NCBI GenBank assembly: GCA_038817835.1
Contig: JAWAZI010000004.1
Location: forward strand, 2,542-66,541
Direction: 5' to 3'
Length of the DNA stretch: 64,000 nucleotides
Source: Candidatus Pacearchaeota archaeon
GTDB lineage: Archaea; Nanobdellota; Nanobdellia; Pacearchaeales; JAPDKA01
Shown: positions 3,218 to 17,717 of the stretch, piece by piece
Layout of the letters: each line of letters opens with the position of its first letter
Numbering within the stretch: the stretch's first letter is position 1
Made by a program: the position numbers and the translations under genes
Notes under the pieces: model-generated
The model's input: the letters and a program-made list of their open reading frames with translations, nothing else
Told to the model about the DNA's origin: nothing
The model's database searches: none

Positions 3218-3218
3218 T

Positions 3219-3872: not shown

Positions 3873-3901
3873 TTTTAAATAATTTTTTTAATTTTATAAA
3901 T

Positions 3902-4735
3902 TTATTTTAAAAATAATCTAACACCTTGAAATATTAAAAATGATATAGCAACTAGAATAAATGAATGTTTTAACCCAGATAATATTTTACCTTCTGATAA
4001 TTTTCCTATAACTATTCCTGCAAAAAAACCTTGAATTAAAATTAAGAAAAAAATTAAATTATTAAGAAACTCAACATTTATATTACTTATAAATTGGTAC
4101 TCTTGTTGTTGTGGGATTATTTTAAACATTTCAGGAATAAATTTTAGTTGAAGTATTATCATTATAATCAAAAAAATAAAAAATATAATATATCCTTGCA
4201 CAATCATAGAATGAACAACCATAGCTCTTTTTTTATTTATCTCTTGGATTTCTCTAACACTTTTTACTGTAGATTCTAAAATACTTTCTATTTTTCCTCC
4301 TGCAGTTTCTGCTTGCCTTATTAATTCTATAGCTCTAGAAATAACTTTATTTTCTGTTTCTTTAGCAAATATTAAAAGAGCTTTATTTAAGGGTATACCT
4401 AAAGTAATCTGATTTGCTAATTTTTTTATATTATAATCTAAACTTTTATAATCTCTTTTTGATATATTTATTATAGATTTTGATATTGGTATTCCTGTAG
4501 CTACAGATTCAGATAAACTCAATAAAAATTCTAAAAACATTTCTTCTTTTTCTTTCTCTTTCTCTACTTTATAAATTATATCAAAAATAAAAGGTAAACA
4601 TAAAATCAATAAACTTAATCCTGTAATAAAATAAAATATTTTCATATTATCCTCATTGAAAAAAAAGATAAAATTTAATACTAAAATAATTAAAGTAAAA
4701 ATAATTGCAATGTGGTGATATCTCTTCAGTTTCAT
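3902..4735 (-). CDS. Type II secretion system F / FlaJ-TadC-like polytopic membrane protein
   Basis: N-terminal TM helices are followed by a cytoplasmic helical domain (GIPISKSIINISKRDYKSLDYNIKKLANQITLGIPLNKALLIFAKETENKVISRAIELIRQAETAGGKIESIL) and then C-terminal TM helices. This is the T2SS-F domain pattern. Confidence 0.75.
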   Translation of the reverse strand: MKLKRYHHIAIIFTLIILVLNFIFFFNEDNMKIFYFITGLSLLILCLPFIFDIIYKVEKEKEKEEMFLEFLLSLSESVATGIPISKSIINISKRDYKSLDYNIKKLANQITLGIPLNKALLIFAKETENKVISRAIELIRQAETAGGKIESILESTVKSVREIQEINKKRAMVVHSMIVQGYIIFFIFLIIMIILQLKFIPEMFKIIPQQQEYQFISNINVEFLNNLIFFLILIQGFFAGIVIGKLSEGKILSGLKHSFILVAISFLIFQGVRLFLK

Positions 4736-4736
4736 T

Positions 4737-5717
4737 TTAAGATGGTGGTGTAACTATTTGAAGATATATTATAAATATTATATTCAAAATAATAATTACT
4801 ATTAAACCTAAAATTGATAGTTGTGTTACAGATAATCCACCAATAGTTGCATTAGGAATTAAACCTATAAAAAATAAAAGTAACATAAAAATCATTGGAG
4901 CAGTAATTAATAAACCAGTATAAATATCTGAATAAACTCCTGCAGAAATTGAAAATTTTTCTCTTGAAACTTTATAATTTGTTAAAAATTTCTTTGACTC
5001 TTCATTAAAATATTCATTTAAATCTCCACCAGTAATAATATTTGTAGCAACACCATTAAGCATTTCCACTAAGTTTTTATTTGGTATTAATTTTATTGAT
5101 TCTCTTATTGCAGTAACTAAATCCATACCTAAAAAATTTATTTTATTTGTAATTTTTCTTATTTGTTTTGAAATTTCTTTAAATTCATTTGATTCTGAAA
5201 TTAAGTTGAAAATTTTAACTGGAGGAACTCCACTTCCTGCTATAGTTGCCATATATAAAGCTGCAAAAGGAAGTTCTGCCTCTATTTTTCTTTCAATATT
5301 TTTTATTTCTATTTTAGGATAAAAAAACAAAATTAAAAAAACTAAAAATGTAAATAAAAAACTAAAAAATATATTTCTAATAATTATAAAAATTGGGGAA
5401 CCAATTGAAATGAAAATTGCAAATAAAAGTGAAGCTATAAAAAAAATTAAAGTTACAAAAAAGATTAAACTTAAGTAACTTGACAACAATAAAGATATAT
5501 TTGCTTTTTTCAGATCTAGATTATAATTTTTTAAAAAATTTTTTCTTGCTAAAGAGATAGAAAAATTTCCAAAAATAGAATTAGCTAAAGAAACAAAAAA
5601 ATTTGGTTTTTCTATTTCTTCTAATTTTTCTTTTTTTTCTTTTTGTTTTAAAATTTTTTTTAATTTTTTTACATCTTCTTCCCTTATTTTTAACTCTTTA
5701 TATATTTCTTCTCTCAT
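4737..5717 (-). CDS. Type II secretion system F / FlaJ-TadB-like polytopic membrane protein
   Basis: ELPFAALYMATIAGSGVPPVKIFNLISESNEFKEISKQIRKITNKINFLGMDLVTAIRESI...GGDLNEYF is flanked by TM helices. Its start overlaps the ATPase stop. Confidence 0.75.
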   Translation of the reverse strand: MREEIYKELKIREEDVKKLKKILKQKEKKEKLEEIEKPNFFVSLANSIFGNFSISLARKNFLKNYNLDLKKANISLLLSSYLSLIFFVTLIFFIASLLFAIFISIGSPIFIIIRNIFFSFLFTFLVFLILFFYPKIEIKNIERKIEAELPFAALYMATIAGSGVPPVKIFNLISESNEFKEISKQIRKITNKINFLGMDLVTAIRESIKLIPNKNLVEMLNGVATNIITGGDLNEYFNEESKKFLTNYKVSREKFSISAGVYSDIYTGLLITAPMIFMLLLFFIGLIPNATIGGLSVTQLSILGLIVIIILNIIFIIYLQIVTPPS

Positions 5718-7288
5718 AGATATCCTGCTAATTGAGAAGGATTTTTATAGTAAAGATTAATAATTCTTTGAACTTCATAAAAATCAAAAATTTTTCTTGT
5801 AACTAAATTATAAAGCAATCTTGTTCTTATATTAAATTCTTTCTTCAGTTCTTCAATTTTTATTCCATATCTTTCACTTATTTTTTCAAAACATTTTATT
5901 TCTGTTCTATAATAAAATTTGTCATCACTAGGATTCCATAGATAAGGAACATTTACAGTTGCTGTTCCATCTTCACTTATATTAATTATCTCAACTATCT
6001 TTGCAAGTTTTCTAGTTTCTTGTCCTCTAACTAAAGCATGTTGCATAATTGCAACAACATCCAAAACATTCATTAAAGTTGGACTTAAGCTTATTGGTGG
6101 AGTTTGAAGTCTTTTTATTACTGCTTCAACAGAATCTGCATGAATAGTACTTAATGAAGCATGACCACTAGCCATTCCTTGAAATAAAACATAAGCTTCC
6201 TTACCTCTAACTTCTCCAACTATAACATAATCAGGCCTCTGTCTAAAACTTTCTTTTAATAGTGTAAACAAATCTATTTCACCAACTCCTCCAATTCCTG
6301 ATCTTGTGACACTAGGAAGCCAATTTTCTCTAGCCAAATTAATTTCTCTTGTATCTTCAATACTAACAACTCTTGCTTCAGGAGGGATAAAAAATGCTAG
6401 AGCATTTAGTAAAGTTGTTTTTCCACTTCCTGTTCCACCAGTAACTAAAATATTCATTTTATATTGTAATAGTATCCAAAAATAAGCCATCATCTCAGGA
6501 CTAACTGTTCTGAAATTTATAAGATGGACTGGTGTCCATGGAATTTTTGTAAATTTTCTAATTGTAAATGTTGGCCCTTTACTTGTAACTTCTGTTGTAT
6601 AAGTAGCATTAACTCTACTTCCATCTGGTAATGTACCATCTAATAGAGGATTAGCATAACTTATATATTTTCCACATCTTTGAGCAAGTTTCTCAACAAA
6701 ACTAGCAAGATATTCCATATCTCTATAAATAATATTTGTCCTTATATTTCTATAAATTCTATGAACAATATATACTGGTGTATTAATACCATTACACCCT
6801 ATATCCTCAATAAAATAATCTCTCAACAAGGGTTCTATCTCATTAAATCCTATAAAATCTCTATAAATATAATAAAATATTTTTGAATAAGTTTGCTGAG
6901 AAATTCTTATTGATAATTCTTCTATAATAAGTTTAATTATTTTATCTAAATAATCTAAAATTTCTGATTGAGATTTTTCAGTTAAATAACTTATATTTAT
7001 TATTTCTTGTAAAGCTTGTTTTATTATTTCTAATATTCTTTTCTCATTTTGATTAAGCAATGGTTCCTCAATTTCATAAATAACTTCCCCCAATGAAGAA
7101 TTCCAATATATATGAGCATAAGCATATGGAAATATTAAAGGATATCTAACATTTATTTTAGTTTTATCTTCTATTTTTTTTAGATTTGGAAGTGGTGGAT
7201 TTAAATCAATAAAAGGATATGTATATTTTGGTTTTAAAGTATATAATGGTACTTCAGGTTCTTTTTTATTTTCTTTTTCCATTTTCAC
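5714..7288 (-). CDS. FlaI/PilB/VirB11-family secretion (type IV pilus assembly) ATPase
   Basis: Walker A VTGGTGSGKTTLLNAL, Asp box RVVSIEDTREI, Walker B-like PDYVIVGEVRGKEA and His box STIHA are all present. Confidence 0.9.
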   Translation of the reverse strand: MKMEKENKKEPEVPLYTLKPKYTYPFIDLNPPLPNLKKIEDKTKINVRYPLIFPYAYAHIYWNSSLGEVIYEIEEPLLNQNEKRILEIIKQALQEIINISYLTEKSQSEILDYLDKIIKLIIEELSIRISQQTYSKIFYYIYRDFIGFNEIEPLLRDYFIEDIGCNGINTPVYIVHRIYRNIRTNIIYRDMEYLASFVEKLAQRCGKYISYANPLLDGTLPDGSRVNATYTTEVTSKGPTFTIRKFTKIPWTPVHLINFRTVSPEMMAYFWILLQYKMNILVTGGTGSGKTTLLNALAFFIPPEARVVSIEDTREINLARENWLPSVTRSGIGGVGEIDLFTLLKESFRQRPDYVIVGEVRGKEAYVLFQGMASGHASLSTIHADSVEAVIKRLQTPPISLSPTLMNVLDVVAIMQHALVRGQETRKLAKIVEIINISEDGTATVNVPYLWNPSDDKFYYRTEIKCFEKISERYGIKIEELKKEFNIRTRLLYNLVTRKIFDFYEVQRIINLYYKNPSQLAGYL

Positions 7289-7327
7289 CTCTTTTAAAAA
7301 ATAAAAAAAATTAAGTATTTAAGCTTT

Positions 7328-7858
7328 TTATAATAAAGAAATATAAATTGTATTATTAGGATTATCAGTAGATGGAGGACCTAAATTTTCTATAAATAAT
7401 GTATAAGGGGTAGTCGATTGAGTTAGTGAAATATTTTTTCCTTCTTCATTTGGAGATGTTGTTATATTTATTGGCTCAGAATATGTTATCCATAGCATTG
7501 TTTCAATTTTCCCTCTAGTTTTATTAGTAATTAAATTTATCTTGCCAATATTTATCAATGTTCCTGGCTGTGAAAATTCAAAATTTGTTGTTATAGTGTA
7601 AATAATTTGATCTCTCTCTGGGATTATTTTTAGTTCTCCTTTATTAATTTTTATTTCAAAACTTCTTTTTGTTCCAATTACATCATTAACTTCATATATC
7701 GTAGAATCAAGACTATTCATAACATTAATCATATAATTAATAACAAATCTATCTCTAGCTTCATCTATTTTAGGTTTGGCTGCAATAATTAATGTTGAAA
7801 TTATTGTTAGACCTATAAGTATATAAATTATTGTAGATACCCAAACTTGTGATTTCAT
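7328..7858 (-). CDS. Pilin-like protein (N-terminal hydrophobic helix, atypical cleavage motif)
   Basis: MKSQVWVSTIIYILIGLTIISTLIIAA is followed by a beta-rich Thr/Asn-rich body. It sits between the pilin genes and the ATPase gene. It has no canonical K/R-G/A cleavage motif. Confidence 0.4.
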   Translation of the reverse strand: MKSQVWVSTIIYILIGLTIISTLIIAAKPKIDEARDRFVINYMINVMNSLDSTIYEVNDVIGTKRSFEIKINKGELKIIPERDQIIYTITTNFEFSQPGTLINIGKINLITNKTRGKIETMLWITYSEPINITTSPNEEGKNISLTQSTTPYTLFIENLGPPSTDNPNNTIYISLL

Positions 7859-7861
7859 TTT

Positions 7862-8365
7862 TTAACATTCTTCTAAGCTCTCTGTAACAAAATTTGAACA
7901 TATTTCTTCTCTAGTTCCAACCTTAACTATTGGTGCAGCTCCAACTTCGGTAGCAATAAAGTCAACTATTATTTTATAGGTTCTTGCTTCTCCTTTAGAT
8001 GGAAGTTCTATATTTCTTGTCCATGTAGTTCCATTCCACATAAAAATATCAGTGGAAATTTTTGGGATTATCTTATAAACTCTCTTTGTTCCTTCTCCTG
8101 AAACTTGTAAATTAATGCCAACTAAATCAAAATCTTCTAAAGGTCTTTCTATCATCACTATAACACTTTTTTCATTCCTATTAAAGCATGTCCATCCCTG
8201 TGTTTTCTCTATTATTAGTCTTGTATTTAAACCACACGCTTTTCCATGCCATAAACCCTTTTGAACTAATGGTAATATTGCTCCCCAAATTATTCCAACT
8301 GCTGCAATAGTTATCAAAACAAGTAAAACTGTTGCAATCAAAGCTGATATACCTCTTTTTTCCAT
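7862..8365 (-). CDS. Archaeal type IV pilin (class III signal peptide)
   Basis: MEKRG|ISALIATVLLVLITIAAVGIIW is the canonical archaeal prepilin/preflagellin N-terminus. Confidence 0.75.
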   Translation of the reverse strand: MEKRGISALIATVLLVLITIAAVGIIWGAILPLVQKGLWHGKACGLNTRLIIEKTQGWTCFNRNEKSVIVMIERPLEDFDLVGINLQVSGEGTKRVYKIIPKISTDIFMWNGTTWTRNIELPSKGEARTYKIIVDFIATEVGAAPIVKVGTREEICSNFVTESLEEC

Positions 8366-8408
8366 TTCAAATAATTTATTTAAATATTATTTAAATTTTT
8401 TGAAAATA

Positions 8409-8861
8409 TTATTGTAAAATTTTTACTTTTACTTGTGTTTCACAAATAAATTCTAATGGTTTATTGCTTTTTTCTCCTACTCCAAGTAATACTGGATATA
8501 TCTCAACTTTTTTTACATTACTTAAATCTGAAATATCAAAACTAGCATATTTACCAGCACTTAATGCTTCATCTGGTTTACCACTAGCAAAATAAAATTC
8601 AGAACTTTTTTTACCATCTTCATATTTAACTAAAAGTATTTTCCAAATATTTACATTCCCTATATTATTAATTCTAATTTCATCTCCTTGGATATCTACT
8701 TCAAAGTTTACATCTTCACATAATTTCTCAATAGGGTTACCAAATTTCAAAACTTTTTCTCCTATGAAGCCGCGAGTCCATAAAAAAATTATAATAAACA
8801 ATGCAAAAGCTATTGCAATCAAGCCAACAGTAGCTATAACTGGGCTTAAAGCTTTTTTCAT
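8409..8861 (-). CDS. Archaeal type IV pilin (class III signal peptide)
   Basis: MKKA|LSPVIATVGLIAIAFALFIIIF is a canonical archaeal pilin N-terminus. It is the first gene of the operon, so it is a candidate major pilin. Confidence 0.75.
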   Translation of the reverse strand: MKKALSPVIATVGLIAIAFALFIIIFLWTRGFIGEKVLKFGNPIEKLCEDVNFEVDIQGDEIRINNIGNVNIWKILLVKYEDGKKSSEFYFASGKPDEALSAGKYASFDISDLSNVKKVEIYPVLLGVGEKSNKPLEFICETQVKVKILQ

Positions 8862-8930
8862 TAAATTTAGAAATTATTAAGTTTTATAAATTTTTTTAAA
8901 TTTTTAAAGTTAAAAAATTTATTTTTTTAA

Positions 8931-10739
8931 ATGAAAAGAGGTGAAAAAAAAGCACAACTAGCTTTAGTTTTTATAATTGCAATAATTATTGTTACAGCAG
9001 GAATTTTAGCTTATTTTCTATTAAAACCTAAAGAAAAACCAAAATATCCTGAAGAAATATTAAAAGTAGAGGAAAGTTATATAAAATGTTTAACAGATAT
9101 TGGAGAAAGGGCTAAAAATATATTAATGCAAAAGGGTGGCTATATCTATGATAAATCATCTGAAGCTGAAGGATTATATTTAGGAAATAATTTAAATTTT
9201 ATGGGAGAAAATATAGCTTATTGGATTTATTACGATAGTAGCGGCATAATAAAAACACAAAATCCTAGTTTAGAGGATATGGAAAATGAAATTTCTAAAT
9301 TTATAGAAGATAATTTAGATATTTGTGATAGTGTTTTTGATGAATATAATGTTAGCTATATAAAAAATGTAAAAAAAATTGAAGTAAAAATAAGAAGTAA
9401 TAAAATTGAAGTAACAGCATATATAGATTTAGTAATTAAGAAAGAAAATAAAGCTAATTTAATAAGAGAACACAAATTTTTTATTAAAAGTAATTTGAAG
9501 CAATTATATGAAAATGCTATAAGGATATATGAATATGAAAAAAGTAAAAGATTTCTCGAAAATTACACAATAGATATAATATCTTTATATGGAAAAACTA
9601 CTGGTTTTGAAATTCAATGTTATCCACTAATATTTGATAAAGAAGAATTAAAGAGAAATATAACTGATGGTTTAATTGTAAATATTGAAAGAATAAAATT
9701 TAATGGAAATTATTTTAAATTTAGAGAAGGACATAAATATTTTATAAATAGAATTGATATAGATGATGGTATTTCTGTTAATTTATTGTATTCTAAATTA
9801 TTTCCAACAAAGATAGATATTTATGCTGAAGAAAAAAATAATTTACTAAAATTTGATCCTATAGGCAATCAAGAAGGATTAAATTTAATCAATTTTTGTT
9901 ATGTTCCATACCATATTGTTTATGATGTAAAGTTCCCTGTTCTATTTATATTAAGAAAAGATGATGAAATATTCAAATTTCCTTTAGTTGTAGTAATAGA
10001 AAGAAATGGGATAAAAGAAATATTAATGGAGAATGGGTCTATAAAAACAAAAGGTATTTGCAATGCTGCAATAAAAAATGCTGAAATTTATGTTTATGAT
10101 AGTGAAAATAAAAAAATTGATGGTGCTGATGTTTATATAAAATGTTTAGATGCAAATTGCTATTTAGGAAAAACAAAAAATGGATATTTAAAAGCAAAAG
10201 TTCCACAATGTATTAATGCATTTATTTTAGTAAATGCAGAAAATTATGAAGAAAATAAAATTCCTATAAATACAAATTATGATGTAAATGTAAATATATT
10301 TTTAGATAAATTATATGAAAAAGAAATAAAATTAAATTTAAATGAAAAAGAAACTGTAATAATACTATTTGAAGGAAAAAGAAATGATGTTATAAATTAT
10401 CCTGAAAGAAATAAATTATATCTAAGTAGAGGCAATTATAATATAACTTTATATGTTTTCAAGGATAAAGAAATAATAATTAATGAAAAAAGTGAGATAT
10501 GTTATGATACTCCATTATTTCTATGGATAAAAAGAAAAAAATGTGAGGAAATTGACCAAATTACATTTGATAAAGTTTTAATTGGTGGTGGTAAAAGTGA
10601 AATCTATTTTGATGAAGATTTTTTAGAAGATTACAAGCCTATAGAAATAATTTTTGATAGATTTGATGAACCAAAGAATATAGAGGACATACAAAAAAAT
10701 TATGAATTTTTAAAATTTAGTAAAATAGAAATAAAATGA
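8931..10739 (+). CDS. Large exported protein with class III-like signal peptide; function unknown
   Basis: MKRGEKKA|QLALVFIIAIIIVTAGILAYF fits the K-A-Q-L prepilin pattern. A C-terminal segment (AEIYVYDSENKKIDGADVYIKC...GKTKNGYLKAKVP) looks like a carboxypeptidase-regulatory/Ig-like beta domain. Its stop overlaps the start of the giant ORF (ATGA). Confidence 0.5.
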   Translation: MKRGEKKAQLALVFIIAIIIVTAGILAYFLLKPKEKPKYPEEILKVEESYIKCLTDIGERAKNILMQKGGYIYDKSSEAEGLYLGNNLNFMGENIAYWIYYDSSGIIKTQNPSLEDMENEISKFIEDNLDICDSVFDEYNVSYIKNVKKIEVKIRSNKIEVTAYIDLVIKKENKANLIREHKFFIKSNLKQLYENAIRIYEYEKSKRFLENYTIDIISLYGKTTGFEIQCYPLIFDKEELKRNITDGLIVNIERIKFNGNYFKFREGHKYFINRIDIDDGISVNLLYSKLFPTKIDIYAEEKNNLLKFDPIGNQEGLNLINFCYVPYHIVYDVKFPVLFILRKDDEIFKFPLVVVIERNGIKEILMENGSIKTKGICNAAIKNAEIYVYDSENKKIDGADVYIKCLDANCYLGKTKNGYLKAKVPQCINAFILVNAENYEENKIPINTNYDVNVNIFLDKLYEKEIKLNLNEKETVIILFEGKRNDVINYPERNKLYLSRGNYNITLYVFKDKEIIINEKSEICYDTPLFLWIKRKKCEEIDQITFDKVLIGGGKSEIYFDEDFLEDYKPIEIIFDRFDEPKNIEDIQKNYEFLKFSKIEIK

Positions 10740-13700
10740 AAAAAATAATTATTTTAATTTTATTTATTTTTTTAATTAATTTTTGCTATGCACAGAATTA
10801 TTATTATTTTACACCTTCAAATATATATAAAGAAGATTATGAAAAATTTTTTAGTCAACAAGCTTTAAGTTTTGCTTGTAATCAAACAAAAAATTTTATT
10901 GTTTATATAGACCCTCTAGAAGGTTGCCAACCCAATATAATAAGAAGTGATTTACTTGAGGATCAACCTGTACTTGTATTTTGTAAAATTAAAGCAATAA
11001 ACCTAAATCCATTATTGGATAATATTTATATAAAAAGTATTAGTATAGCTACTCCTTATAAAAGTAGTAATATTGTTGGAGGAGTAATATATCATTCTCC
11101 ATATATGGGTGAAAAATTATTATCAAGGTATTTATGGGATGAGTATGGATATAAAAGAGGGATCGCTTCATTCGATAATTTGGGTTATGCTGTAGTTATG
11201 TTAAATCCTGTACCAGAATCTAAAATGCCTGAAAGAATAGATATAAACGCAACTGCAAGAATATTATATAGTGCTGGTTTTATTTATGGCATAGATAGAA
11301 ATAGTTTTTTAATTCCTGAATTAAGTGAAGAAGAATGGAAAGCAAGATTTGATGAATTTTCTTTTTTTAATGGTAAAGGTTTTATAAAAGTGAATAAAAT
11401 AAAAAAAGATTTTGTAGATGTAGAAATTTATAAAGAAACAATAAATGATCCAACTCCTATAAGAGTTACTTTAACAAAAGATAAACCAGTAAAAGTAAAT
11501 TTTTGGGGATTTTTTTGTGATAATCAAGAATTTGATATAATTTTAGAGGATATTTTATATCCACAAAGTTATGCAAGATTAATTATAAATGGAAAAGAAT
11601 ATTTATTGGCTGAAGGTGATGAAGCTGAAGGATGTAAAATTATTAATATAGAAAAAGGAATAGTAAGTGGAAGTGGTGAAGTAACTATTAATTGTGATGG
11701 AAAAACTTCAGTATTAAAAATAGAACCCTTAAAAGTTGTAATAGATTTTGATAATAAAATTTATGAATTAACTTTAGGGGAAGGAATAAAAATAGATGAC
11801 AAGAATTACTATTATTTAGTTTGTGTTAAAGATAATTATGCTTATTTCTATGAAGGAGATTCAACTAAAAAACAAGAAGTTAAAAAATTAATAAGTAAAT
11901 ATTTTCCATCTTGTGAATTTGATAAAGAAAAAGGAATAAAATCTGTAAAAGTAAAAAATTCAATCAAAATTGATAGTAAAAATTTAACTTTAAAAGAGAT
12001 TTTTATATTAAAGGATAGTTTATTGCCTGAAAATGTTGAAAAAGCTTATTCAGAAGCAAAAGAAAAATATATGGATATTTTTTTCACATATAAATATGAA
12101 AAAGATGAAAGTGATGGAGAATATATTGGGGCTAAAGCTTTATACGAATTAGCAAATCTAGCAATTGAAATAGGAAAAAGAAGTGAGGCAATAAATATTT
12201 TATCAGAGCTTATTGAAGAGTATGAAGATAAAGATAGTGGAATTGTTCTTGAGGCAAGAAAGAAAAAGATTAGTTTAATTAAATATGAAATTATAGGAAA
12301 AACAACAATAGAAAAAAATGGAAATTTTTGGGATATTGAATTAATAGATATAGAACATCCTTATAGTTTTGATAGTTTTGTTGAGTTAAAAATTAATGAT
12401 AAAAAAGATAGATATTGGATAGGGCAACATATAGGAGAAGGTTGGATAATAGAAGAAATAAAAGAAGATCATATAATTTTGAGAAATCTAAAAGAGGAAA
12501 GAATAGAAAAAATTACTTTAGGAATAGAAAGATGCATAGATGTTAAAAATGATAAATGTATAATGAATGTAAAACTTACTAATATAAATGTAAAAAAAGC
12601 TGCAAAAATAACAGTAAAACCTCCTGAACTTAATTATGTTTCTGAAACAAATTTTACTATACATATTGGAATTGAAAAAAGAGCTATAAAAATTGCTCCT
12701 GAAAAGGCTTTAGAGATGGCAAAAAAACTAAATGAAACTTCAAAAAAAATAGAAGAATTTAATAAAAAATTAGGAAAAGTTGTTGAAAATTGGAAAAAAG
12801 CATGCTATATTGGTGGAACAGCTCTATTTTTAAAAAATTTCATAGAGGGAATGGGTGGTGAAAGTTTAGCAAGAAAAATAGCTATGAGGGGAACTGATGG
12901 AAAAGGAGGATGGACCCAAATTTGTATTGAAAAAGGATATAAAAAATTAGATGAATGTTTTAGAGAAAATGAAGATGAAATAAATAATGATGTTGAGGCA
13001 ATTAAAAGATTAATAGGAGAAGTAAATGAAGAAATAAAAATTGCTGAAGAAGGTTGTAAAAATTTAAAAAATTTTGAAGAAAGAGAGAGATGTTTATATG
13101 AAAAAATTGCTGAGAAAATTGCTGAGAGAGAAAAAATAAAAATTAAAATTGATGGAGAAGAAATTGGTATAGAAAACTTTATTAAAAAATCTCTTCCAAT
13201 ACTTAGTGAAAGAGGTTATTTTGTTAGAGATCAATTAAAAGATTTTCTATTAGAGTTAAAAATAAATCAAAATGAAAATATAAGTGGGGGTATGAAAAAT
13301 TTAATCTCAAATAAAGTTAAAAATTTTGTTATATCAAATAAGAGATTAGCAGATGAGATAGAAACTTATGTTGGAGAATTTCCAATTAATATTTATGAAA
13401 AAAAACAAATTTATGTTCCTTTAAATACAATTGATAAATTAAAAGATAATATCAAAGAAAAATTAAAAGAATATAGATGCGATGGACCTAATATTTATTA
13501 TTTCTTTGCTAATTATAATGGTAATCTTGTATACGTTATAGTTAGTAAAGAAGACAGCACAATTGAGGTTAAATGTGTATTAAAAAAAGATGGATCTGAT
13601 ATTAAAAAAGATGAAAATATTCTAAATAATTTAAAAAATTATATAATATTAGAATCGAAATGTTCTCCAATAGATAGCAAATATATTTATGCAGGTTTCT

Positions 13701-16700
13701 ATGAAAGTGGAAAATATAAAGATAGAATTGGATATATGCCAGTAATAGCTCAAAAAGGATGGTATATTTTCATTGATGATAAAACTGAAAGTTATTATGA
13801 AAGTGGTGCTTTAAAAGAATATTATTTATGTAATGTTGGAAATAATGGTGTTCCTGATTTAGCTTTATATCAAATTACAAATGATGATATATGTATCCAA
13901 GTACCAGCAGATAGATCAATAATATATAATATAAAATTACAAGTTTGTGGTGAAGATATAGAAAATATTCAATTATTAACATCAAAAGCTGAAGAATGTG
14001 TAGCTACAGCCAATACTCAAAAAAGATTGGGAAAACCAATACAAACTAGATGTGGGAATTTCAAAATAAAAAAACAAGTAACTGTTCCAACAGCTCAATG
14101 TGAAGATTTTATGAGCCCTAGCGAATGTAGAATTTTATTCAATTTATGTGATCCTGTGTTATGTCCTCCCTCTAGATGTAATCTTGCTGGAAGATATCCT
14201 GTAGATAATGTTGTACAGACAGGGATAATAGGAAGTTTAGTTTTATGTTTACCAAATTTCGAGGGAGGAAAAGGAGTAATAATGCCTATATGCTTAACAG
14301 GATTGCATGCTGGAATAGAATTTCTTAATAAAATATTAAATGAAACAGTAAAATGTTTAGAGATAAGTGTAGAAACAGGAAAAAATATTGGAATATGTGA
14401 TCAAATAAAAAGCATATATATTTGTGAAATGTTATGGAATCAATTATTACCATTTGTAAGAGCTGGTATACCAAGCATATTAGAAAAAATTGAAAGAAAG
14501 GGTGGTGGAGAATATGCAAAATTCAGATCTACATGGGAGAATACTTTTGAAGGATTAAGATATTTCTATCAAGTATATGGAGTAACTGCTGCTGAAGCAT
14601 TTAAAATAAGAAGTACTCAAGAGGTTGGAACTATGATCTGTAAAAAGTTTTTAGGAGTTAGATATCCTAATGCAGCATCATTACTTGAAGAAATCAGTAA
14701 ACCAGAATTGCCATATCAATTCTTTGCAAAAATTGAAGAAATTCCTTATACAACAATAAATTATCCTCCTCAAAGTCATTATAAAGTTCTTTATATAATT
14801 TATGCTGGAGAACAAGATATTTGGTATAGTATCTATTTAAGAAATCCACCACAATATAGTGGCATAATAATTCAACAACATTATATTATTGATGCAGGAT
14901 TTTTGGCAAGAGGTCAAAGTATATCAAAAAGTCCTGATTTTGTTGCTGTATCTGGATATAAAGAAATCTGTGTAAATATAAATGGTAGAGAATATTGTGG
15001 ATTTGAGGTTAGTAGTACAAGTTATGCTATAAATTTCTTACAAGATAAATATATTGAAGATCAATTGAAAGCAAATATAAAAACAGCAAAAGAATGTAAA
15101 AGTGGGAAACCAAGTTTAATACCAACTTCTAGCTTATTAAATATTCAACAAGGAGTCACAAAAGCTTTAAGTCCTGCGATCTATAAACAAGGTATAACGA
15201 GGATTTGTTCAACATTAAATCCTGGTGTTGGAAGTGATGAAGAAAATTGGAAAGCTGTTGGATATTGTGATGATCCTAACATAAAATGTTGGGTATATTT
15301 GCCAAGTATAAAACAAGCTATAAAAGATCTTGGCCTTGAAAATGAAACAATCCAATCTATTGAAAAAAAATCAAAAGAAATTTTGGAAGAAATTGAAAAA
15401 GTTGGAATCGGTATAGAGGAAGAAGAAATTTACAAAAATACATATAATTATTTGAATGAAAAAATTGAAAATTATGAGAAAATAATAAAAAATAAAAAAA
15501 TTGAAAAAGAGGATATTAAAAGAAAAATTGAAAAAGATATTAAAGATGCAGAAGAAAATATAACTAAAATATTAGACCCTAAAAAATTGAAAATACTTAA
15601 ATTCAAATTAGCAACTTTATATAAATTAAAAACTTTGATATATTATTATTCATATTATAAGCCTGAAGAAGAAAAACCTGAAGAGAAACCTATAGAAAAA
15701 CCTAAAGAAGAAGAAAAACCAGAATTACCAAAATCTATAGAAGTTAAAATTTATACTATAGTAAATGGTAAAGAAAAAGATAGTAATTTTAATGGAATAG
15801 TAAATTATGATGATAATGTAGAACTTTGTGCTAAAATAAAAATAGATAATAAATGGTATAAAGAAACTAGTAATTTACCATATGAAATAAACTTCGATTG
15901 GTATAAAATTATACCTATAGAAAAGAATGGAGGCTATGTAGTTTATGGAGAAGAAGGAAAAATGGATTTAGTAAAATATGAACAAAAAAAAATTGGAAAG
16001 TATAAATGGTGTATAGAACTTCCAAAAGAAGTTGGAACATATTGGTATAGGGTTGAAGTTGAAATTAAGGATAAAAATTTAAATTATTATTTAAAAAATT
16101 CTTCATTAGGTAGGCCTGCAAGTAAGGATGATATTTCCAAATTTGAAGAAATGATAAATAAATGCAAAAAAGAAATAGAAAAACAACCAAACGTTGAAAT
16201 CGAACAAGAAGTTATTAATTCTCTTTTAGATGATATAAAAAATAATTATCAACAATATCTAGAACCAGATGCTTATGAAGGTTGTGTAGGAATAAGCACA
16301 AAAATTACTAGAATAAGTAGAAAAGAAGATGATAGTGTTTGTCCTGATGAAATAAAAAATACAAAAAGATGTGAGTTCATAAAAACAATATATATATTCC
16401 AAACAGTTCCATTTGGTTATGGTGGAGAATTCTATGAAAATGATGTAAACAAAAATCATTATAAAAATTTCATGATAATAGATTGTATAGATCTTGCTCT
16501 TGCAGCAGAAACATACTCAACAAATGTTGATTTATATATAAATTATACAGATAAAACTTCTCCATATAGCGGTAGCGCATTTGCTCAATATATAATCTAT
16601 AATAATATTACGACCTTTAATGGTATAACTCTCCACAATGTAAGGTTAAAAGATATATATAGCTACAATATAAACTTTAATAATGGAAATGGCGTAAAAA

Positions 16701-16954
16701 CTGGTGATGTGCTACTACAAGTTGAAAAATGTAAGGATATAATATGCAATTATACTGATACATTAATTTTACTACGTGATACATATAGTAAATCCAAAAT
16801 ATTAGACGCAGGAGATATAATAATTCAAGCTTCTTCAGATTGTAGTTATGGAACAAAAATTGGAATAAGTTTATGCGCTCGTCAACTATCTATATTTGAC
16901 AGAAATAAAAACTTCACTTTAGTAAAATCATCAATACTAGATAAAATTGCTTAA
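10736..16954 (+). CDS. Giant (2072 aa) secreted protein of unknown family
   Basis: A single uninterrupted 6.2-kb ORF. It has a Sec-type signal (MKKIIILILFIFLINFCYA|Q), a TPR-like stretch, K/E coiled coils and a Cys-dense core (aa ~1122-1230). It also has a P/E/K linker (PEEEKPEEKPIEKPKEEEKPELP) and a C-terminal block with an NlpC/P60-like Cys motif. Confidence 0.7.
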   Translation: MKKIIILILFIFLINFCYAQNYYYFTPSNIYKEDYEKFFSQQALSFACNQTKNFIVYIDPLEGCQPNIIRSDLLEDQPVLVFCKIKAINLNPLLDNIYIKSISIATPYKSSNIVGGVIYHSPYMGEKLLSRYLWDEYGYKRGIASFDNLGYAVVMLNPVPESKMPERIDINATARILYSAGFIYGIDRNSFLIPELSEEEWKARFDEFSFFNGKGFIKVNKIKKDFVDVEIYKETINDPTPIRVTLTKDKPVKVNFWGFFCDNQEFDIILEDILYPQSYARLIINGKEYLLAEGDEAEGCKIINIEKGIVSGSGEVTINCDGKTSVLKIEPLKVVIDFDNKIYELTLGEGIKIDDKNYYYLVCVKDNYAYFYEGDSTKKQEVKKLISKYFPSCEFDKEKGIKSVKVKNSIKIDSKNLTLKEIFILKDSLLPENVEKAYSEAKEKYMDIFFTYKYEKDESDGEYIGAKALYELANLAIEIGKRSEAINILSELIEEYEDKDSGIVLEARKKKISLIKYEIIGKTTIEKNGNFWDIELIDIEHPYSFDSFVELKINDKKDRYWIGQHIGEGWIIEEIKEDHIILRNLKEERIEKITLGIERCIDVKNDKCIMNVKLTNINVKKAAKITVKPPELNYVSETNFTIHIGIEKRAIKIAPEKALEMAKKLNETSKKIEEFNKKLGKVVENWKKACYIGGTALFLKNFIEGMGGESLARKIAMRGTDGKGGWTQICIEKGYKKLDECFRENEDEINNDVEAIKRLIGEVNEEIKIAEEGCKNLKNFEERERCLYEKIAEKIAEREKIKIKIDGEEIGIENFIKKSLPILSERGYFVRDQLKDFLLELKINQNENISGGMKNLISNKVKNFVISNKRLADEIETYVGEFPINIYEKKQIYVPLNTIDKLKDNIKEKLKEYRCDGPNIYYFFANYNGNLVYVIVSKEDSTIEVKCVLKKDGSDIKKDENILNNLKNYIILESKCSPIDSKYIYAGFYESGKYKDRIGYMPVIAQKGWYIFIDDKTESYYESGALKEYYLCNVGNNGVPDLALYQITNDDICIQVPADRSIIYNIKLQVCGEDIENIQLLTSKAEECVATANTQKRLGKPIQTRCGNFKIKKQVTVPTAQCEDFMSPSECRILFNLCDPVLCPPSRCNLAGRYPVDNVVQTGIIGSLVLCLPNFEGGKGVIMPICLTGLHAGIEFLNKILNETVKCLEISVETGKNIGICDQIKSIYICEMLWNQLLPFVRAGIPSILEKIERKGGGEYAKFRSTWENTFEGLRYFYQVYGVTAAEAFKIRSTQEVGTMICKKFLGVRYPNAASLLEEISKPELPYQFFAKIEEIPYTTINYPPQSHYKVLYIIYAGEQDIWYSIYLRNPPQYSGIIIQQHYIIDAGFLARGQSISKSPDFVAVSGYKEICVNINGREYCGFEVSSTSYAINFLQDKYIEDQLKANIKTAKECKSGKPSLIPTSSLLNIQQGVTKALSPAIYKQGITRICSTLNPGVGSDEENWKAVGYCDDPNIKCWVYLPSIKQAIKDLGLENETIQSIEKKSKEILEEIEKVGIGIEEEEIYKNTYNYLNEKIENYEKIIKNKKIEKEDIKRKIEKDIKDAEENITKILDPKKLKILKFKLATLYKLKTLIYYYSYYKPEEEKPEEKPIEKPKEEEKPELPKSIEVKIYTIVNGKEKDSNFNGIVNYDDNVELCAKIKIDNKWYKETSNLPYEINFDWYKIIPIEKNGGYVVYGEEGKMDLVKYEQKKIGKYKWCIELPKEVGTYWYRVEVEIKDKNLNYYLKNSSLGRPASKDDISKFEEMINKCKKEIEKQPNVEIEQEVINSLLDDIKNNYQQYLEPDAYEGCVGISTKITRISRKEDDSVCPDEIKNTKRCEFIKTIYIFQTVPFGYGGEFYENDVNKNHYKNFMIIDCIDLALAAETYSTNVDLYINYTDKTSPYSGSAFAQYIIYNNITTFNGITLHNVRLKDIYSYNINFNNGNGVKTGDVLLQVEKCKDIICNYTDTLILLRDTYSKSKILDAGDIIIQASSDCSYGTKIGISLCARQLSIFDRNKNFTLVKSSILDKIA

Positions 16955-16972
16955 AATTATTAAAAAGTGATG

Positions 16973-17103: not shown

Positions 17104-17523
17104 TTATCTTCTCCTTTGTGATTGAGTAGATGTTCTTGGCTGTGGTTGAGTGTATGTTGGCTGTGGTTGAGTGTATGTTTTTCCCTTAAATGAGTTTTGA
17201 TATTCTATGTATTTCTTTTTTATATCTTCTTGTGGTTGGGGCTGTGTTTTTGTTCCTTCTCTTATTTTAATATATACTCTCACTGTCTCTGGTTTATACT
17301 TAATTATTGTATCGTATTTAATTATTGTATCATATACTATATTTTCAATTTTTAATGTATCTACTTTCTCTATATATACTGTATCTACTTTTGTTGGTGT
17401 GTAATATATTGGATAATAATTGTGATTGTAAATTTTGTATGTCTTAGTACAACCTAAAATACCCGCCACTAATAAGCCTTCTATTATTTTCTTTTCAAGA
17501 TTTGATATTTTTTTGATTGTCAT
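17104..17523 (-). CDS. Small repeat-containing putative lipoprotein
   Basis: It has a lipobox-like LVAGILG|C after an N-terminal hydrophobic segment. Internal repeats are YDTIIKYDTIIKY and TYTQPQPTYTQPQP, and the tail is basic (QRRR). Confidence 0.5.
   Translation of the reverse strand: MTIKKISNLEKKIIEGLLVAGILGCTKTYKIYNHNYYPIYYTPTKVDTVYIEKVDTLKIENIVYDTIIKYDTIIKYKPETVRVYIKIREGTKTQPQPQEDIKKKYIEYQNSFKGKTYTQPQPTYTQPQPRTSTQSQRRR
17138..17179. repeat. Perfect 2 x 21-nt tandem repeat inside the 139-aa gene
   Basis: ggctgtggttgagtgtatgtt occurs twice in tandem and encodes TYTQPQP twice on the minus strand. Confidence 0.7.
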
Positions 17524-17677: not shown

Positions 17678-17717
17678 TCAAAAAATAAATTTTTAAAAAT
17701 TAAAAAATTTTTTTATA

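What the first reader, a model, noticed from the sequence alone, without database searches (positions are those of the whole stretch)
8931..16954. Giant 2072-aa secreted protein translationally coupled to a 602-aa class III-signal protein, divergent from the pilus operon
Seen in sequence: only 69 nt (8862-8930) separate the first pilin gene from a divergent 602-aa ORF. That ORF's N-terminus (MKRGEKKA|QLALVFIIAIIIVTAG) also fits the prepilin pattern. Its stop overlaps (ATGA at 10736-10739) the start of a single 6.2-kb ORF, about 10% of the window. The giant protein has a Sec-type signal (MKKIIILILFIFLINFCYA|Q) and no C-terminal anchor. It contains a TPR-like stretch (GAKALYELANLAIEIGKRSEAINILSELIEEY), long K/E coiled coils, a Cys-dense core, a P/E/K linker (PEEEKPEEKPIEKPKEEEKPELP, nt ~15658-15735) and a distinct C-terminal domain. 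I cannot name a family for most of its length. I infer that the pair is a pilus-associated or pilus-exported adhesin or host-interaction factor. Giant surface proteins recur in small-genome episymbiotic archaea, but this pilus-linked two-gene architecture is not one I know as described. This is the best candidate in the window for a novel system.
Basis: partly seen in the sequence, partly recalled or inferred. Interest (0 to 1): 0.72.

Follow-up and report, generated by a model that had tools for sequence, protein, structure and literature searches.

The report
Pilin-like anchor plus giant exoprotein
This is a two-gene unit conserved in hundreds of tiny Pacearchaeota/Woesearchaeota archaea, in which a 600-aa protein with a pilin-type signal is translationally coupled to an anchorless ~2000-aa secreted protein whose relatives often carry enzymes that cut bacterial cell walls, so it is probably a surface device for engaging other cells, although what its conserved core does is unknown.

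Summary
ORFs 8931-10739 (602 aa) and 10736-16954 (2072 aa) overlap by ATGA and lie 69 nt from a divergent archaeal type IV pilus operon. The window is a ~23% GC Pacearchaeota genome.

The giant protein belongs to a large family restricted to this lineage: 536 species-representative genomes and about 1100 clusters at 50% identity. The literature has noted these as "large extracellular lytic-transglycosylase proteins". About 38% of members carry peptidoglycan-hydrolase modules, mostly after a conserved Cys-rich core. This member carries none. It has instead an uncharacterised C-terminal module, which is the hot spot of strain-level variation.

In 69 of 69 informative loci a homologue of the 602-aa protein sits directly upstream. 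Its [KR][GAS]|Q + hydrophobic N-terminus is conserved, and the Gln is at least 97% invariant. No giant has a membrane anchor.

The pilus operon is adjacent only in the nearest relatives (5 loci). Elsewhere the pair sits among housekeeping genes. So "pilus-linked" is a local arrangement, whereas the pair itself is universal.

The best reading is a surface complex, with a pilin-like anchor presenting a modular giant protein for contact with a host or prey envelope. Core, N-terminal and C-terminal domains match no known fold or family. An S-layer-like structural role is the main rival.

The parts
8862..8930 (.). 69-nt AT-rich divergent intergenic region between the 150-aa pilin gene and the partner gene. 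It contains TTTATAAA at about 8884-8891.
   Evidence: Sequence read. A promoter role is inferred, not tested.
8931..10739 (+). Partner gene: 602-aa exported protein with a class III-like N-terminus.
   Evidence: Homologues lie directly upstream of the giant gene in 69/69 informative loci.
8931..9023 (+). Partner residues 1-31: MKRGEKKA|QLALVFIIAIIIVTAGILAYFLL. This is a prepilin-type motif ([KR][GAS]|Q plus about 20 hydrophobic residues) and is the only membrane-embedding segment in the pair.
   Evidence: The motif is present in all 69 full-length orthologues. Q9 is at least 97% invariant in 66 orthologues. The AF2 model has a helix at 5-31. No pilin HMM hit.
9051..10010 (+). Partner residues 41-360: alpha/beta domain, confidently modelled up to about residue 250, with conserved Cys, D215, H328 and Y331. 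No fold or family match.
   Evidence: AF2 pLDDT 80-97 over residues 41-250. Foldseek against PDB and BFVD gives no hit on this part. Conservation.
10068..10610 (+). Partner residues 380-560: string of beta-sandwich domains (transthyretin / carboxypeptidase-regulatory-like), of the kind found in adhesin or pilin stalks.
   Evidence: Examples: 5aq0 TMt 0.67 over 81 aa, Gram-positive pilins, SlaB 8qox_B E 2.4e-4. Global TM scores are low.
10736..10739 (+). ATGA overlap: the partner's stop codon lies within the giant gene's start region, giving translational coupling.
   Evidence: With best-guess starts, the same 4-nt overlap occurs in 24 of 68 loci and most others lie within -17 to +13 nt.
10736..16954 (+). 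Giant gene: 2072-aa Sec-exported protein with no anchor.
   Evidence: Family data.
10736..10792 (+). Giant residues 1-19: Sec-type signal peptide MKKIIILILFIFLINFCYA|Q.
   Evidence: 71 of 74 family members with an intact 5' end have a hydrophobic N-terminus.
10805..11815 (+). Giant residues 24-360: conserved N-terminal block of unknown fold.
   Evidence: No Pfam family apart from weak TPR_6 further downstream.
11816..12574 (+). Giant residues 361-613: variable region containing the weak TPR-like element (aa 468-496, nt 12137-12223). In P0010 this position holds an M23 peptidase.
12575..13135 (+). Giant residues 614-800: conserved middle block (IGIEKRAI motif, three invariant Cys).
13697..15415 (+). 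Giant residues 988-1560: the family-defining core. It includes FNxCDPV[ILV]C, GGGEY and about 24 invariant Cys. Column identity reaches 68% at 1121-1160.
   Evidence: 1119 cluster representatives match the core profile. No Pfam, PDB or Foldseek match. AF2 confidence here is low.
14195..14335 (+). Giant residues 1154-1200: conserved Gly-rich hydrophobic helix-loop-helix. After the signal peptide these are the two most hydrophobic 19-residue windows of the family.
   Evidence: A membrane-interacting role is only an inference.
15416..15727 (+). Giant residues 1561-1664: K/E-rich helical (coiled-coil-like) segment ending in the PEEEKPEEKPIEKPKEEEKPELP linker.
15728..16090 (+). Giant residues 1665-1785: Ig-like beta-sandwich containing GTYWYR.
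   Evidence: AF2 strands with pLDDT 70-85. Only generic beta-sandwich Foldseek hits. Shared with a subset of relatives.
16091..16951 (+). Giant residues 1786-2072: C-terminal module of unknown function. Invariant residues are a Cys ([DE]-C), GD, two Asp and a Ser, with no conserved His. This is the strain-variable region.
   Evidence: 4-5.4% nt divergence against a 0.3% background. 32.5 of 39.5 nonsynonymous differences fall in aa 1641-2072 (Fisher p 5e-17).
2777..8861 (-). Context: divergent type IV filament operon. It has three pilin-like genes (8409-8861, 7862-8365, 7328-7858), a T2SSE ATPase (5714-7288), two T2SSF platform genes (4737-5717, 3902-4735) and two further small proteins with N-terminal hydrophobic segments (3219-3872, 2777-3217).
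   Evidence: It adjoins the pair only in the window and in L001, L007, L008 and L009, plus the near-identical strain L088.

Best explanation
The two genes are a conserved, translationally coupled operon of Pacearchaeota/Woesearchaeota that builds a two-part cell-surface complex.

The 602-aa protein is exported and probably cut by the prepilin peptidase before Gln9. Its N-terminal hydrophobic helix then holds it in the membrane or in a type IV filament, in the manner of a minor or tip pilin. Its beta-sandwich stalk projects outwards.

The 2072-aa protein is exported by Sec and has no anchor of its own, so the partner is the obvious candidate to hold it at the surface, made in about 1:1 amounts through the ATGA coupling. 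It consists of a conserved scaffold (N-terminal block, middle block, disulfide-rich core) and an exchangeable distal module. In relatives the distal module is often a peptidoglycan hydrolase or a protease.

The complex therefore most likely contacts the envelope of another cell (host or prey, often a bacterium) and locally opens it.

In this organism the distal module is a non-canonical, fast-varying Cys-containing domain. It is more likely a specificity or binding determinant, or an unrecognised enzyme, than a murein hydrolase.

Shown: the pairing, export signals, lack of an anchor, modularity, strain variability and lineage distribution. Inferred: physical interaction of the two proteins, prepilin processing, surface retention and the target.
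For: Pairing:
- A partner homologue (E 1e-117 to 1e-274) lies directly upstream on the same strand in 69/69 loci with an intact 5' end.
- With best-guess starts, 24 of 68 loci have the exact 4-nt overlap and most others lie within -17 to +13 nt.

Anchoring logic:
- 71/74 giants have a signal-like N-terminus, 0/83 have a C-terminal hydrophobic tail and none has an internal TM segment.
- Every partner has one N-terminal hydrophobic helix preceded by [KR][GAS]|Q.
- Q9 is as invariant as the structural cysteines.

Stalk-like partner:
- AF2 model with pLDDT 78 and tandem beta-sandwiches that resemble adhesin/pilin stalk domains.

Modular effector end:
- Pfam finds SLT, Amidase_3, DUF1615, glucosaminidase and M23 in named relatives.
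- Of 76 tails, 9 have SLT, 4 Amidase_3, 2 M23, 2 glucosaminidase, 2 trypsin-like and 1 NlpC/P60.
- 56 of 149 full-length representatives carry such modules, mostly after the core.

Surface exposure and selection:
- Between two strains with ~0.3% background divergence, the giant's tail (4-5.4%) and the exposed part of the 150-aa pilin (6%) are the two strongest hot spots.
- 32.5 of 39.5 nonsynonymous changes in the giant lie in its last 432 codons, with pN/pS 0.7-0.9.

Lineage-wide core gene:
- 536 species genomes and 1119 clusters at 50% identity.
- Stable housekeeping neighbourhood.
- No relatives on viral contigs.

Literature:
- Large SLT-domain proteins of these lineages are proposed to bind or degrade bacterial walls (PMC8204110; PMC9723730).
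Against: - This protein has no recognisable hydrolase, and about 60% of family members lack one. Wall degradation therefore cannot be the function of the conserved scaffold.
- The partner's N-terminus matches no curated class III / pilin model. A Pro/Lys linker follows the helix, which would also suit a plain membrane anchor.
- No interaction between the two proteins was tested.
- The conserved core has no fold or family match, and AF2 models it poorly (pLDDT 30-40).
- Universal presence in a housekeeping locus would also fit a structural envelope protein.
- No host of any Pacearchaeota is known.
Confidence: 0.5

Rival explanations
1. Structural cell-envelope pair. The giant protein forms an S-layer-like canopy or envelope scaffold and the 602-aa protein is its membrane stalk, as with SlaA/SlaB of Sulfolobales. 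Hydrolase modules are secondary add-ons.
For: - The pair is universal and probably single-locus, in a conserved housekeeping neighbourhood.
- The large subunit has no anchor and the small subunit carries one TM helix and beta-sandwich domains.
- There is a weak Foldseek hit to SlaB, 8qox_B, E 2.4e-4.
- Translational coupling implies fixed stoichiometry.
- Strain-variable exposed parts are also typical of S-layers under phage pressure.
Against: - The core is far more conserved (up to 68% column identity, about 24 invariant Cys) than S-layer proteins usually are.
- SlaB is anchored at its C-terminus and has no prepilin motif, whereas here the [KR][GAS]|Q motif is invariant.
- Exchangeable enzyme modules are typical of effectors.
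- TM scores to SlaB are 0.13-0.17.
- There is no sequence similarity to any solved S-layer protein.
Confidence: 0.2
2. The pair is a dedicated accessory of the adjacent pilus operon: a tip adhesin exported or presented by that particular machinery and co-regulated from the shared 69-nt region.
For: - The divergent arrangement is conserved in the window, L001, L007, L008, L009 and L088.
- The partner has a prepilin-like N-terminus.
- The pilin and the giant's tail are the two strongest strain-variable spots.
- Archaeal type IV filament loci with large adhesin-like or PilY-like genes are known (bioRxiv 10.64898/2026.04.22.720090).
Against: - None of the other loci fetched, including the ~64 with an intact upstream region, has a T2SSE, T2SSF or pilin gene in the DNA held, roughly 5-10 kb on either side.
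- The giant protein has an ordinary Sec signal.
- There is no similarity to PilY1/PilC.
Confidence: 0.12
3. Nutrient-scavenging surface assembly, analogous to the Sulfolobus bindosome. Class III-signal proteins hold a large multi-enzyme protein that harvests cell-wall debris and peptides from the environment rather than attacking a living partner.
For: - Class III signals occur on non-pilin surface proteins (bindosome; PMC6098224; bioRxiv 10.64898/2026.04.22.720090).
- The modules include amidases, glycosidases and trypsin-like proteases.
- These archaea lack most biosynthesis pathways (PMC8204110).
Against: - Most family members, including this one, have no recognisable enzyme.
- No substrate-binding-protein fold was found.
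- Strain-level diversification of the distal module fits recognition of a variable partner better than recognition of a generic polymer.
Confidence: 0.1
4. Artefact or mobile element: an assembly chimera, a pseudogene fusion, or a viral or plasmid gene such as a tape-measure protein with lysin domains.
For: Giant ORFs with SLT or M23 modules and coiled coils are reminiscent of phage tape-measure or polyvalent proteins (own knowledge). There is a weak PHROG 'internal virion protein' hit, E 0.009.
Against: - Independent assemblies give the same ORF.
- Colinear homologues are present in 536 species genomes at a syntenic chromosomal site next to ribosomal-protein and TFIIB genes.
- No relative was found among 2.9 million viral contigs.
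- No composition break occurs across the gene.
Confidence: 0.01

Closest known systems
[quoted passage not shown] 2021, PMC8204110; also Vigneron et al. 2022, PMC9723730)
   Same: Same lineage, same size class (1600-3800 aa) and secreted. Our protein shares the N-terminal, middle and core blocks with SLT-bearing members such as P0013, P0022 and P0023.
   Different: Our protein has no SLT or other known hydrolase domain. The papers define the family by that domain. In the papers I could search, none describes the conserved Cys-rich core, the obligatory upstream partner or its prepilin-like signal. I could not verify that fam00969 is exactly this family, because the supplement holds no match.
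Bacterial type IV pilus tip complexes: PilY1 with minor pilins, and CofB-CofJ / TcpB-TcpF of type IVb pili (own knowledge; PilY is mentioned for archaeal loci in bioRxiv 10.64898/2026.04.22.720090)
   Same: A large Sec-exported protein without a pilin N-terminus would be presented by a pilin-like protein encoded next to it. The pilin-like partner carries beta-rich domains. The role would be adhesion or engagement.
   Different: There is no sequence or fold similarity to PilY1/PilC, CofB or TcpB. The pair is usually not inside a pilus locus. The giant protein is far larger and has enzyme modules.
SlaA/SlaB two-component S-layer of Sulfolobales
   Same: Adjacent genes encode a large anchorless outer subunit and a smaller membrane-anchored stalk with beta-sandwich domains. 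There is a weak Foldseek hit to SlaB.
   Different: SlaB has a C-terminal anchor, whereas this partner has an N-terminal prepilin-like helix. There is no sequence relationship. The conserved Cys core and exchangeable enzyme modules are unlike S-layer proteins.
Sulfolobus bindosome (class III-signal sugar-binding proteins assembled by BasEF)
   Same: A large globular protein carries a class III signal and is not a filament subunit.
   Different: There is no substrate-binding-protein fold and no Bas genes nearby. The NCBIfam BasC hit is on a small pilin, not on the partner.
SPEARE proteins of Nanohaloarchaeota and giant cell-wall-degrading proteins of predatory Omnitrophota (own knowledge; bioRxiv 10.1101/2023.11.21.568195 by title and abstract)
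   Same: Giant secreted multi-domain proteins of small-celled or predatory microbes, implicated in breaching a partner's envelope.
   Different: The families are unrelated. None of their hallmark domains was found here. Neither is described with a pilin-like partner gene.

Membership tests
Pace/Woesearchaeota giant secreted protein family (conserved-core family; literature 'large lytic transglycosylase proteins') | Shares the conserved core (FNxCDPV[ILV]C, GGGEY, invariant Cys pattern) with the other members | tested here: met
   Core identity to 26 relatives is 29-62% and HSP E-values go down to 0. The core profile retrieves 1119 cluster representatives.
Pace/Woesearchaeota giant secreted protein family (conserved-core family; literature 'large lytic transglycosylase proteins') | SLT / GH23 lytic transglycosylase domain (the feature used in the literature) | tested here: not met
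   No PF01464 or other murein-hydrolase hit on the whole protein or on its tail. SLT is present in only about 30% of full-length representatives.
Pace/Woesearchaeota giant secreted protein family (conserved-core family; literature 'large lytic transglycosylase proteins') | N-terminal secretion signal, no membrane anchor, length above 1600 aa, restricted to this lineage | tested here: met
   All 80 listed genome hits are labelled Pacearchaeota, Woesearchaeota, Nanoarchaeota or 'archaeon'.
Archaeal type IV pilin-like / class III signal peptide proteins (for the 602-aa partner) | Short basic n-region, [KR][GAS] cleavage site, then about 20 hydrophobic residues at the extreme N-terminus | tested here: met
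   The window protein has KKA|QLALVFIIAIIIVTAG. The motif is present in 69/69 orthologues (58 by regex, 11 by eye). Q+1 is at least 97% conserved.
Archaeal type IV pilin-like / class III signal peptide proteins (for the 602-aa partner) | Match to curated N-terminal models (TIGR02537 arch_flag_Nterm, Pfam class III signal / pilin families) | tested here: not met
   No such hit at E <= 0.1 in Pfam or NCBIfam. In the same search the neighbouring 167-aa ORF passes TIGR02537.
Archaeal type IV pilin-like / class III signal peptide proteins (for the 602-aa partner) | Cleavage by a PibD/FlaK/EppA-type prepilin peptidase and incorporation into a filament | not testable with these tools
   Needs biochemistry. 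No multi-TM ORF with a GxGD motif is present in this window, which says nothing about the rest of the genome.
Archaeal type IV pilin-like / class III signal peptide proteins (for the 602-aa partner) | Encoded with a type IV filament ATPase and platform genes | tested here: inconclusive
   Adjacent in the window, L001, L007, L008, L009 and L088. Absent from the flanks of all other loci.
PilY1/PilC-type pilus tip adhesins | C-terminal PilY1/PilC beta-propeller domain | tested here: not met
   No Pfam hit in the giant protein or in 44 N-terminal halves, 76 tails and 10 cores of relatives. No such Foldseek hit for residues 873-2072.
NlpC/P60-CHAP cysteine peptidases (for the C-terminal module) | Conserved Cys-His(-polar) catalytic residues and an HMM match | tested here: not met
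   An invariant Cys is present, but no conserved His occurs in the 7-sequence alignment. No Pfam or PDB-profile hit. Other family members do have weak CHAP/NlpC_P60 hits.
SlaA/SlaB-type S-layer | Sequence or fold relationship to SlaA/SlaB; stalk subunit with a C-terminal TM anchor | tested here: not met
   Only a weak local beta-sandwich match to SlaB, TM 0.13-0.17. The partner's only TM helix is N-terminal. No PDB sequence-profile hit.
Diversity-generating retroelement target | Template repeat near the variable region and adenine-specific substitutions | tested here: not met
   The tail has no repeat elsewhere in the window longer than a 58-nt AT-rich match. Strain differences are mostly A<->G transitions in both directions.

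The most novel reading that the evidence does not exclude
The pair is the conserved business end of the Pacearchaeota/Woesearchaeota host-contact apparatus. A pilin-like protein mounts a giant disulfide-knotted scaffold on a type IV filament or on the membrane. The invariant core of that scaffold, with its Gly-rich hydrophobic hairpin (aa 1154-1200), engages or perforates the partner cell's membrane after optional hydrolase modules have opened the wall. This would be a new class of inter-cellular penetration or bridging machinery. It is also a candidate for the still unidentified protein components of DPANN attachment structures.
Probability: 0.15. Interest if true: 0.85.

Novelty: new variant of a known kind. 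Interest (0 to 1): 0.6.

Why it matters
No host, attachment mechanism or surface architecture is known for Pacearchaeota or Woesearchaeota, which are among the most widespread DPANN archaea. So far the only molecular hint has been 'large SLT-domain proteins' in some genomes.

This work changes that picture in three ways:
- Those proteins are one face of a much larger family that is close to universal in the lineage.
- The conserved part of the family is not the hydrolase but an uncharacterised Cys-rich scaffold.
- The giant gene always follows a partner gene that carries a prepilin-type signal.

This yields a defined two-protein target. It can be followed by antibodies, metaproteomics or cryo-ET labelling. 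Its variable distal module could be used to predict host range. It also provides a testable link between the type IV filament machinery and host engagement in these organisms.

If the function turns out to be structural (an S-layer), the pair would instead identify the envelope proteins of the lineage. That is also unknown at present.

Tried and rejected
- **Family and fold assignment of the giant protein.** Pfam, NCBIfam and PHROGs on the whole protein, its tail, 10 cores, 44 N-terminal halves and 76 tails gave only sub-threshold noise for our protein. HMM profiles of the whole family, the partner family and the tail found nothing against PDB sequences. The AF2 model of residues 873-2072 was poor (mean pLDDT 56, conserved core 30-40). 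Foldseek against PDB gave no hit below E 1e-3, only generic Ig-like sandwiches.
- **Partner fold.** The model was decent (pLDDT 78), but Foldseek against PDB and BFVD matched only the C-terminal beta-sandwich repeats. The N-terminal alpha/beta domain stays unassigned.
- **NlpC/P60 idea for the C-terminal module.** Rejected, because there is no conserved His and no HMM hit.
- **DGR-driven hypervariation of the tail.** Rejected.
- **Viral or mobile origin.** Rejected.
- **Assembly chimera.** Rejected.
- **Third homologue search with the core profile.** It returned mostly short fragments and added nothing.
- **Supplement of PMC8204110.** It holds no entry for fam00969, so equivalence with the published family rests on the description only.
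- **jackhmmer with our tail.** It found only the sister strain. BLAST without masking was needed to see the ~23% identical relatives.

Full report
**1.

The window is archaeal. It contains archaeal 16S and 23S rRNA genes at 48462-52960, and outside the rRNA operon its G+C content is 20-27%.

ORFs 8931..10739 (602 aa) and 10736..16954 (2072 aa) are on the plus strand. They overlap in ATGA at 10736-10739. Only 69 nt separate them from a divergent 150-aa ORF.

That ORF heads a type IV filament operon on the minus strand:
- three pilin-like genes
- a T2SSE ATPase (E 6.5e-35)
- two T2SSF platform genes
- two more small proteins with N-terminal hydrophobic segments

The 167-aa ORF passes the NCBIfam archaellin/pilin N-terminal model, and the 150-aa ORF weakly resembles UpsA.

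A stop-free run of 2072 codons cannot occur by chance in DNA this AT-rich.

The ORF is not a chimera:
- Two independent assemblies encode one identical 2071-aa protein that is 98% identical to ours.
- Proteins at 40-50% identity are colinear over most of the length.

**2. What the giant protein is**

A homologue search returned 27 proteins of 1600-3600 aa. All those with names were Pacearchaeota or Nanoarchaeia, and several carried precomputed peptidoglycan-hydrolase Pfam families.

Local alignments define three conserved blocks in our protein:
- residues ~5-360
- residues ~614-800
- residues ~988-1590

Between and after these blocks the sequence is variable. The region 1120-1520 is the most conserved, with up to 68% column identity. 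It holds about 24 invariant cysteines and motifs such as FNxCDPV[ILV]C and GGGEY.

Pfam places the enzyme modules of relatives as follows:
- Downstream of the core: SLT in P0013, P0022 and P0023; DUF1615 and Amidase_3 in P0023; glucosaminidase in P0020.
- In the variable insert before the middle block: M23 in P0010.

A scan of one genome per GTDB species with the core motif gave 536 confirmed loci. The 80 that were fetched are all labelled Pacearchaeota, Woesearchaeota, Nanoarchaeota or simply "archaeon".

An exhaustive profile search found 1119 cluster representatives (942 at E <= 1e-30). The core always lies at about residues 1100-1700 of 1600-3800-aa proteins. Shorter hits are probably fragments.

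The module counts are:
- Among 76 tails, Pfam finds SLT in 9, Amidase_3 in 4, M23 in 2, glucosaminidase in 2, trypsin-like in 2 and NlpC/P60 in 1.
- Among 149 full-length representatives, in-family seed searches find a murein-hydrolase module in 56, or 38%.
- Another partly overlapping set of 50 has Cys-His modules. Two of the four seeds for these gave sub-threshold CHAP/NlpC_P60 hits.

The family is therefore a conserved scaffold with an exchangeable, often lytic, distal end.

Our member has no recognisable enzyme. After a K/E-rich helical segment and the PEK linker it has two elements:
- an Ig-like sandwich (residues 1665-1785)
- a C-terminal module shared at ~23-29% identity with about ten relatives

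The C-terminal module has an invariant Cys, GD, two Asp and a Ser, but no conserved His. It matches nothing in Pfam or in PDB sequences.

The N-terminal, middle and core blocks also match nothing. This holds for Pfam on 44 N-terminal halves and 10 cores and for the family profile against PDB.

The AF2 model of residues 873-2072 had mean pLDDT 56 and only 30-40 in the conserved core. It gave only generic beta-sandwich Foldseek hits.

**3. The partner and the pairing**

In six loci found through exact-protein look-ups, a 598-638-aa gene always lay directly upstream of the giant gene. It overlapped the giant gene by 4 nt in all of these loci except the closest relative, where a 2-nt gap separates the genes. 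These upstream proteins are homologues of our 602-aa protein at 29-48% identity.

I called ORFs in all 86 loci and searched them with HMMs of both families. Every one of the 69 loci with an intact giant 5' end and at least 1.9 kb of upstream DNA has the partner upstream on the same strand:
- 63 were found directly.
- The other six were explained by over-extended start calls, a split giant gene or, in L082, two small inserted ORFs.

With best-guess starts, 24 of 68 pairs have the exact ATGA-type overlap. Most of the rest lie within -17 to +13 nt.

All 69 full-length partners begin with a short basic stretch, then [KR][GAS], then Gln, then about 20 hydrophobic residues. In a 66-sequence alignment this Gln is at least 97% invariant, on a par with the structural cysteines.

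That pattern resembles an archaeal class III (prepilin) cleavage site of the Gln+1 type processed by EppA-like peptidases (own knowledge). However, no curated pilin model matches it, so the assignment rests on the motif and its conservation.

The AF2 model of the partner (pLDDT 78) shows four parts:
- an N-terminal helix (residues 5-31)
- a short low-confidence linker
- a well-modelled alpha/beta domain
- a string of beta-sandwiches (about residues 380-560)

Foldseek matches only the sandwiches. The matched structures are transthyretin / carboxypeptidase-regulatory-like domains, Gram-positive pilins and adhesins, SlaB and phage fibre proteins. Global TM scores are low.

Across the family the giants have a signal-like N-terminus in 71 of 74 cases. 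None of 83 has a C-terminal hydrophobic tail, and none has an internal TM segment. The partner therefore carries the only membrane-embedding element of the pair.

**4. The pilus link is local**

T2SSE, T2SSF and the three pilin genes are found next to the pair only in:
- the window
- L001, L007, L008 and L009, the closest relatives
- the near-identical strain L088

In all other loci the pair sits among housekeeping genes. Ribosomal protein S3Ae, GINS and SRP54 lie on one side. LSM, S8e, TFIIB and a metallo-beta-lactamase-fold gene lie on the other.

The pair is thus a lineage-wide core-genome unit, and one sub-clade has the pilus operon parked beside it. No relatives occur on 2.9 million viral contigs.

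**5. Strain-level variation**

I compared the window with the near-identical strain L088/L087. Background divergence is about 0.3% per 300-nt window. Two spots stand out:
- 8401-8700, the exposed C-terminal part of the 150-aa pilin, at 6.0%
- 15901-16800, the giant's tail, at 4-5.4%

| Region of the giant | Synonymous differences | Nonsynonymous differences | Indel codons |
|---|---|---|---|
| Residues 1-1640 | 8 | 7 | 0 |
| Residues 1641-2072 | 9.5 | 32.5 | 5 |

In the tail pN/pS is 0.7-0.9. Fisher tests give p = 5e-17 for the nonsynonymous excess and p = 0.001 for the synonymous excess. The partner differs by a single residue.

The raised synonymous rate suggests recombination or a locally relaxed region rather than pure positive selection. 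There is no sign of a diversity-generating retroelement. The distal module behaves like an exposed specificity determinant, as the pilin does.

**6. Mechanism**

The best-supported model is a two-part surface complex.
- The partner is made first. It is exported and probably trimmed before Gln9. Its hydrophobic helix keeps it in the membrane or in a type IV filament as a minor or tip subunit.
- The giant protein is made in coupled amounts and exported by Sec. With no anchor of its own, the partner is the obvious candidate to retain it at the surface.
- Its conserved scaffold carries a variable distal module towards the target.

Where the distal module is a murein hydrolase or protease, the target is evidently a bacterial wall. 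The literature proposes the same for the SLT-bearing members (PMC8204110, PMC9723730).

For our protein the distal activity is unknown.

My sub-claim probabilities:

| Sub-claim | Probability |
|---|---|
| Conserved operon whose products act together | ~0.9 |
| Both products are extracellular or surface-located | ~0.85 |
| Prepilin-type processing of the partner | ~0.6 |
| Role in engaging another cell's envelope | ~0.5 |
| Murein hydrolysis by this particular protein | ~0.2 |

After the signal peptide, the two most hydrophobic windows of the whole family profile are 1154-1172 and 1182-1200. They form a Gly-rich helix-loop-helix inside the most conserved stretch. This could be a buried core or a membrane-interacting hairpin, and I cannot tell which.

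The main rival is a structural envelope role of the S-layer canopy-plus-stalk kind. Universality and the housekeeping context favour it. The conserved prepilin motif, the highly conserved Cys core and the exchangeable enzyme ends count against it.

**7. Comparison with what is known**

The giant protein is a member, by homology of its scaffold, of the family noted as large lytic-transglycosylase proteins of these lineages. It lacks the domain by which that family was described.

Functionally the pair most resembles pilus-tip arrangements such as PilY1 with minor pilins, or CofB-CofJ (own knowledge). It also resembles the adhesin-containing archaeal type IV filament loci catalogued recently (bioRxiv 10.64898/2026.04.22.720090). 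It shares no sequence or fold with them and is usually not in a pilus locus.

In the library I could search, no paper describes the partner gene, its signal, the translational coupling or the conserved core.

The protein components of the attachment organelle seen in cultivated Nanobdellota are explicitly unknown (PMC11420986). Whether this family occurs in those organisms was not determined.

**8. Verdict**

This is a real, lineage-wide two-gene surface module. The giant half belongs to a family that has been noticed but not characterised. The obligatory pilin-like partner and the conserved scaffold appear to be new observations.

Novelty: new variant of a known kind. Interest: about 0.6.

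Noticed in passing
window 8401-8700 (C-terminal part of the 150-aa pilin gene 8409..8861, minus strand); also 7801-8100: This is a strain-level divergence hot spot against the near-identical strain L088: 6.0% (and 2.3% at 7801-8100) against a ~0.3% background. The exposed part of the putative major pilin diversifies as the giant protein's tail does.
   Followed up: partly
L087 7924-16900, compared with window 16955-18590: The sister strain (GCA_038859645.1) carries about 8.7 kb between the giant gene and LSM. It encodes MarR, HMA-domain, DsbA/thioredoxin-like, FtrD-like and hemerythrin proteins and a P-type ATPase. The window has three small ORFs there instead, so this is an indel or island at the 3' flank of the pair.
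   Followed up: no
window 17104..17523 (-): This 139-aa ORF, convergent with the giant gene, has a lipobox-like N-terminus (LLVAGILG|C) and TQPQP repeats. phmmer found no homologue in any of the other loci that had been fetched by then.
   Followed up: no
window 58731..59276 (+): This 181-aa ORF has a class III-like N-terminus (MKRG|AFELSVTTIVILVIAMV) and lies far from the pilus operon. It may be another pilin-like protein.
   Followed up: no
window 3219..3872 and 2777..3217 (-): The two distal small genes of the pilus operon have N-termini with a Glu a few residues after the putative cleavage site (KKA|VSYVEVLIA and KKA|WWRIVESIIG), which is reminiscent of bacterial-type pilins. Homologues were found only in L001.
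   Followed up: no
L082 2964-4090: In one Nanoarchaeota genome two small ORFs (235 and 158 aa) are inserted between the partner and giant genes. This is the only locus seen where the pair is interrupted.
   Followed up: no
L007-L086 giant tails (alignment A3): Two of 76 giant tails carry trypsin-like serine protease domains (Trypsin_2 E 2.5e-18). The distal modules are therefore not only murein hydrolases.
   Followed up: no
window 48462-52960: An rRNA operon (16S, tRNA in the spacer, 23S) has 38-48% GC in a ~23% GC genome, which produces the only strong composition step in the window.
   Followed up: no
L006 4355-7039 and 22769-28148; L004 1-2242: Other large ORFs without any Pfam family (894, 672, over 1279 and over 1520 aa) lie within 10 kb of the pair in some relatives. 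These genomes hold further large uncharacterised proteins.
   Followed up: no
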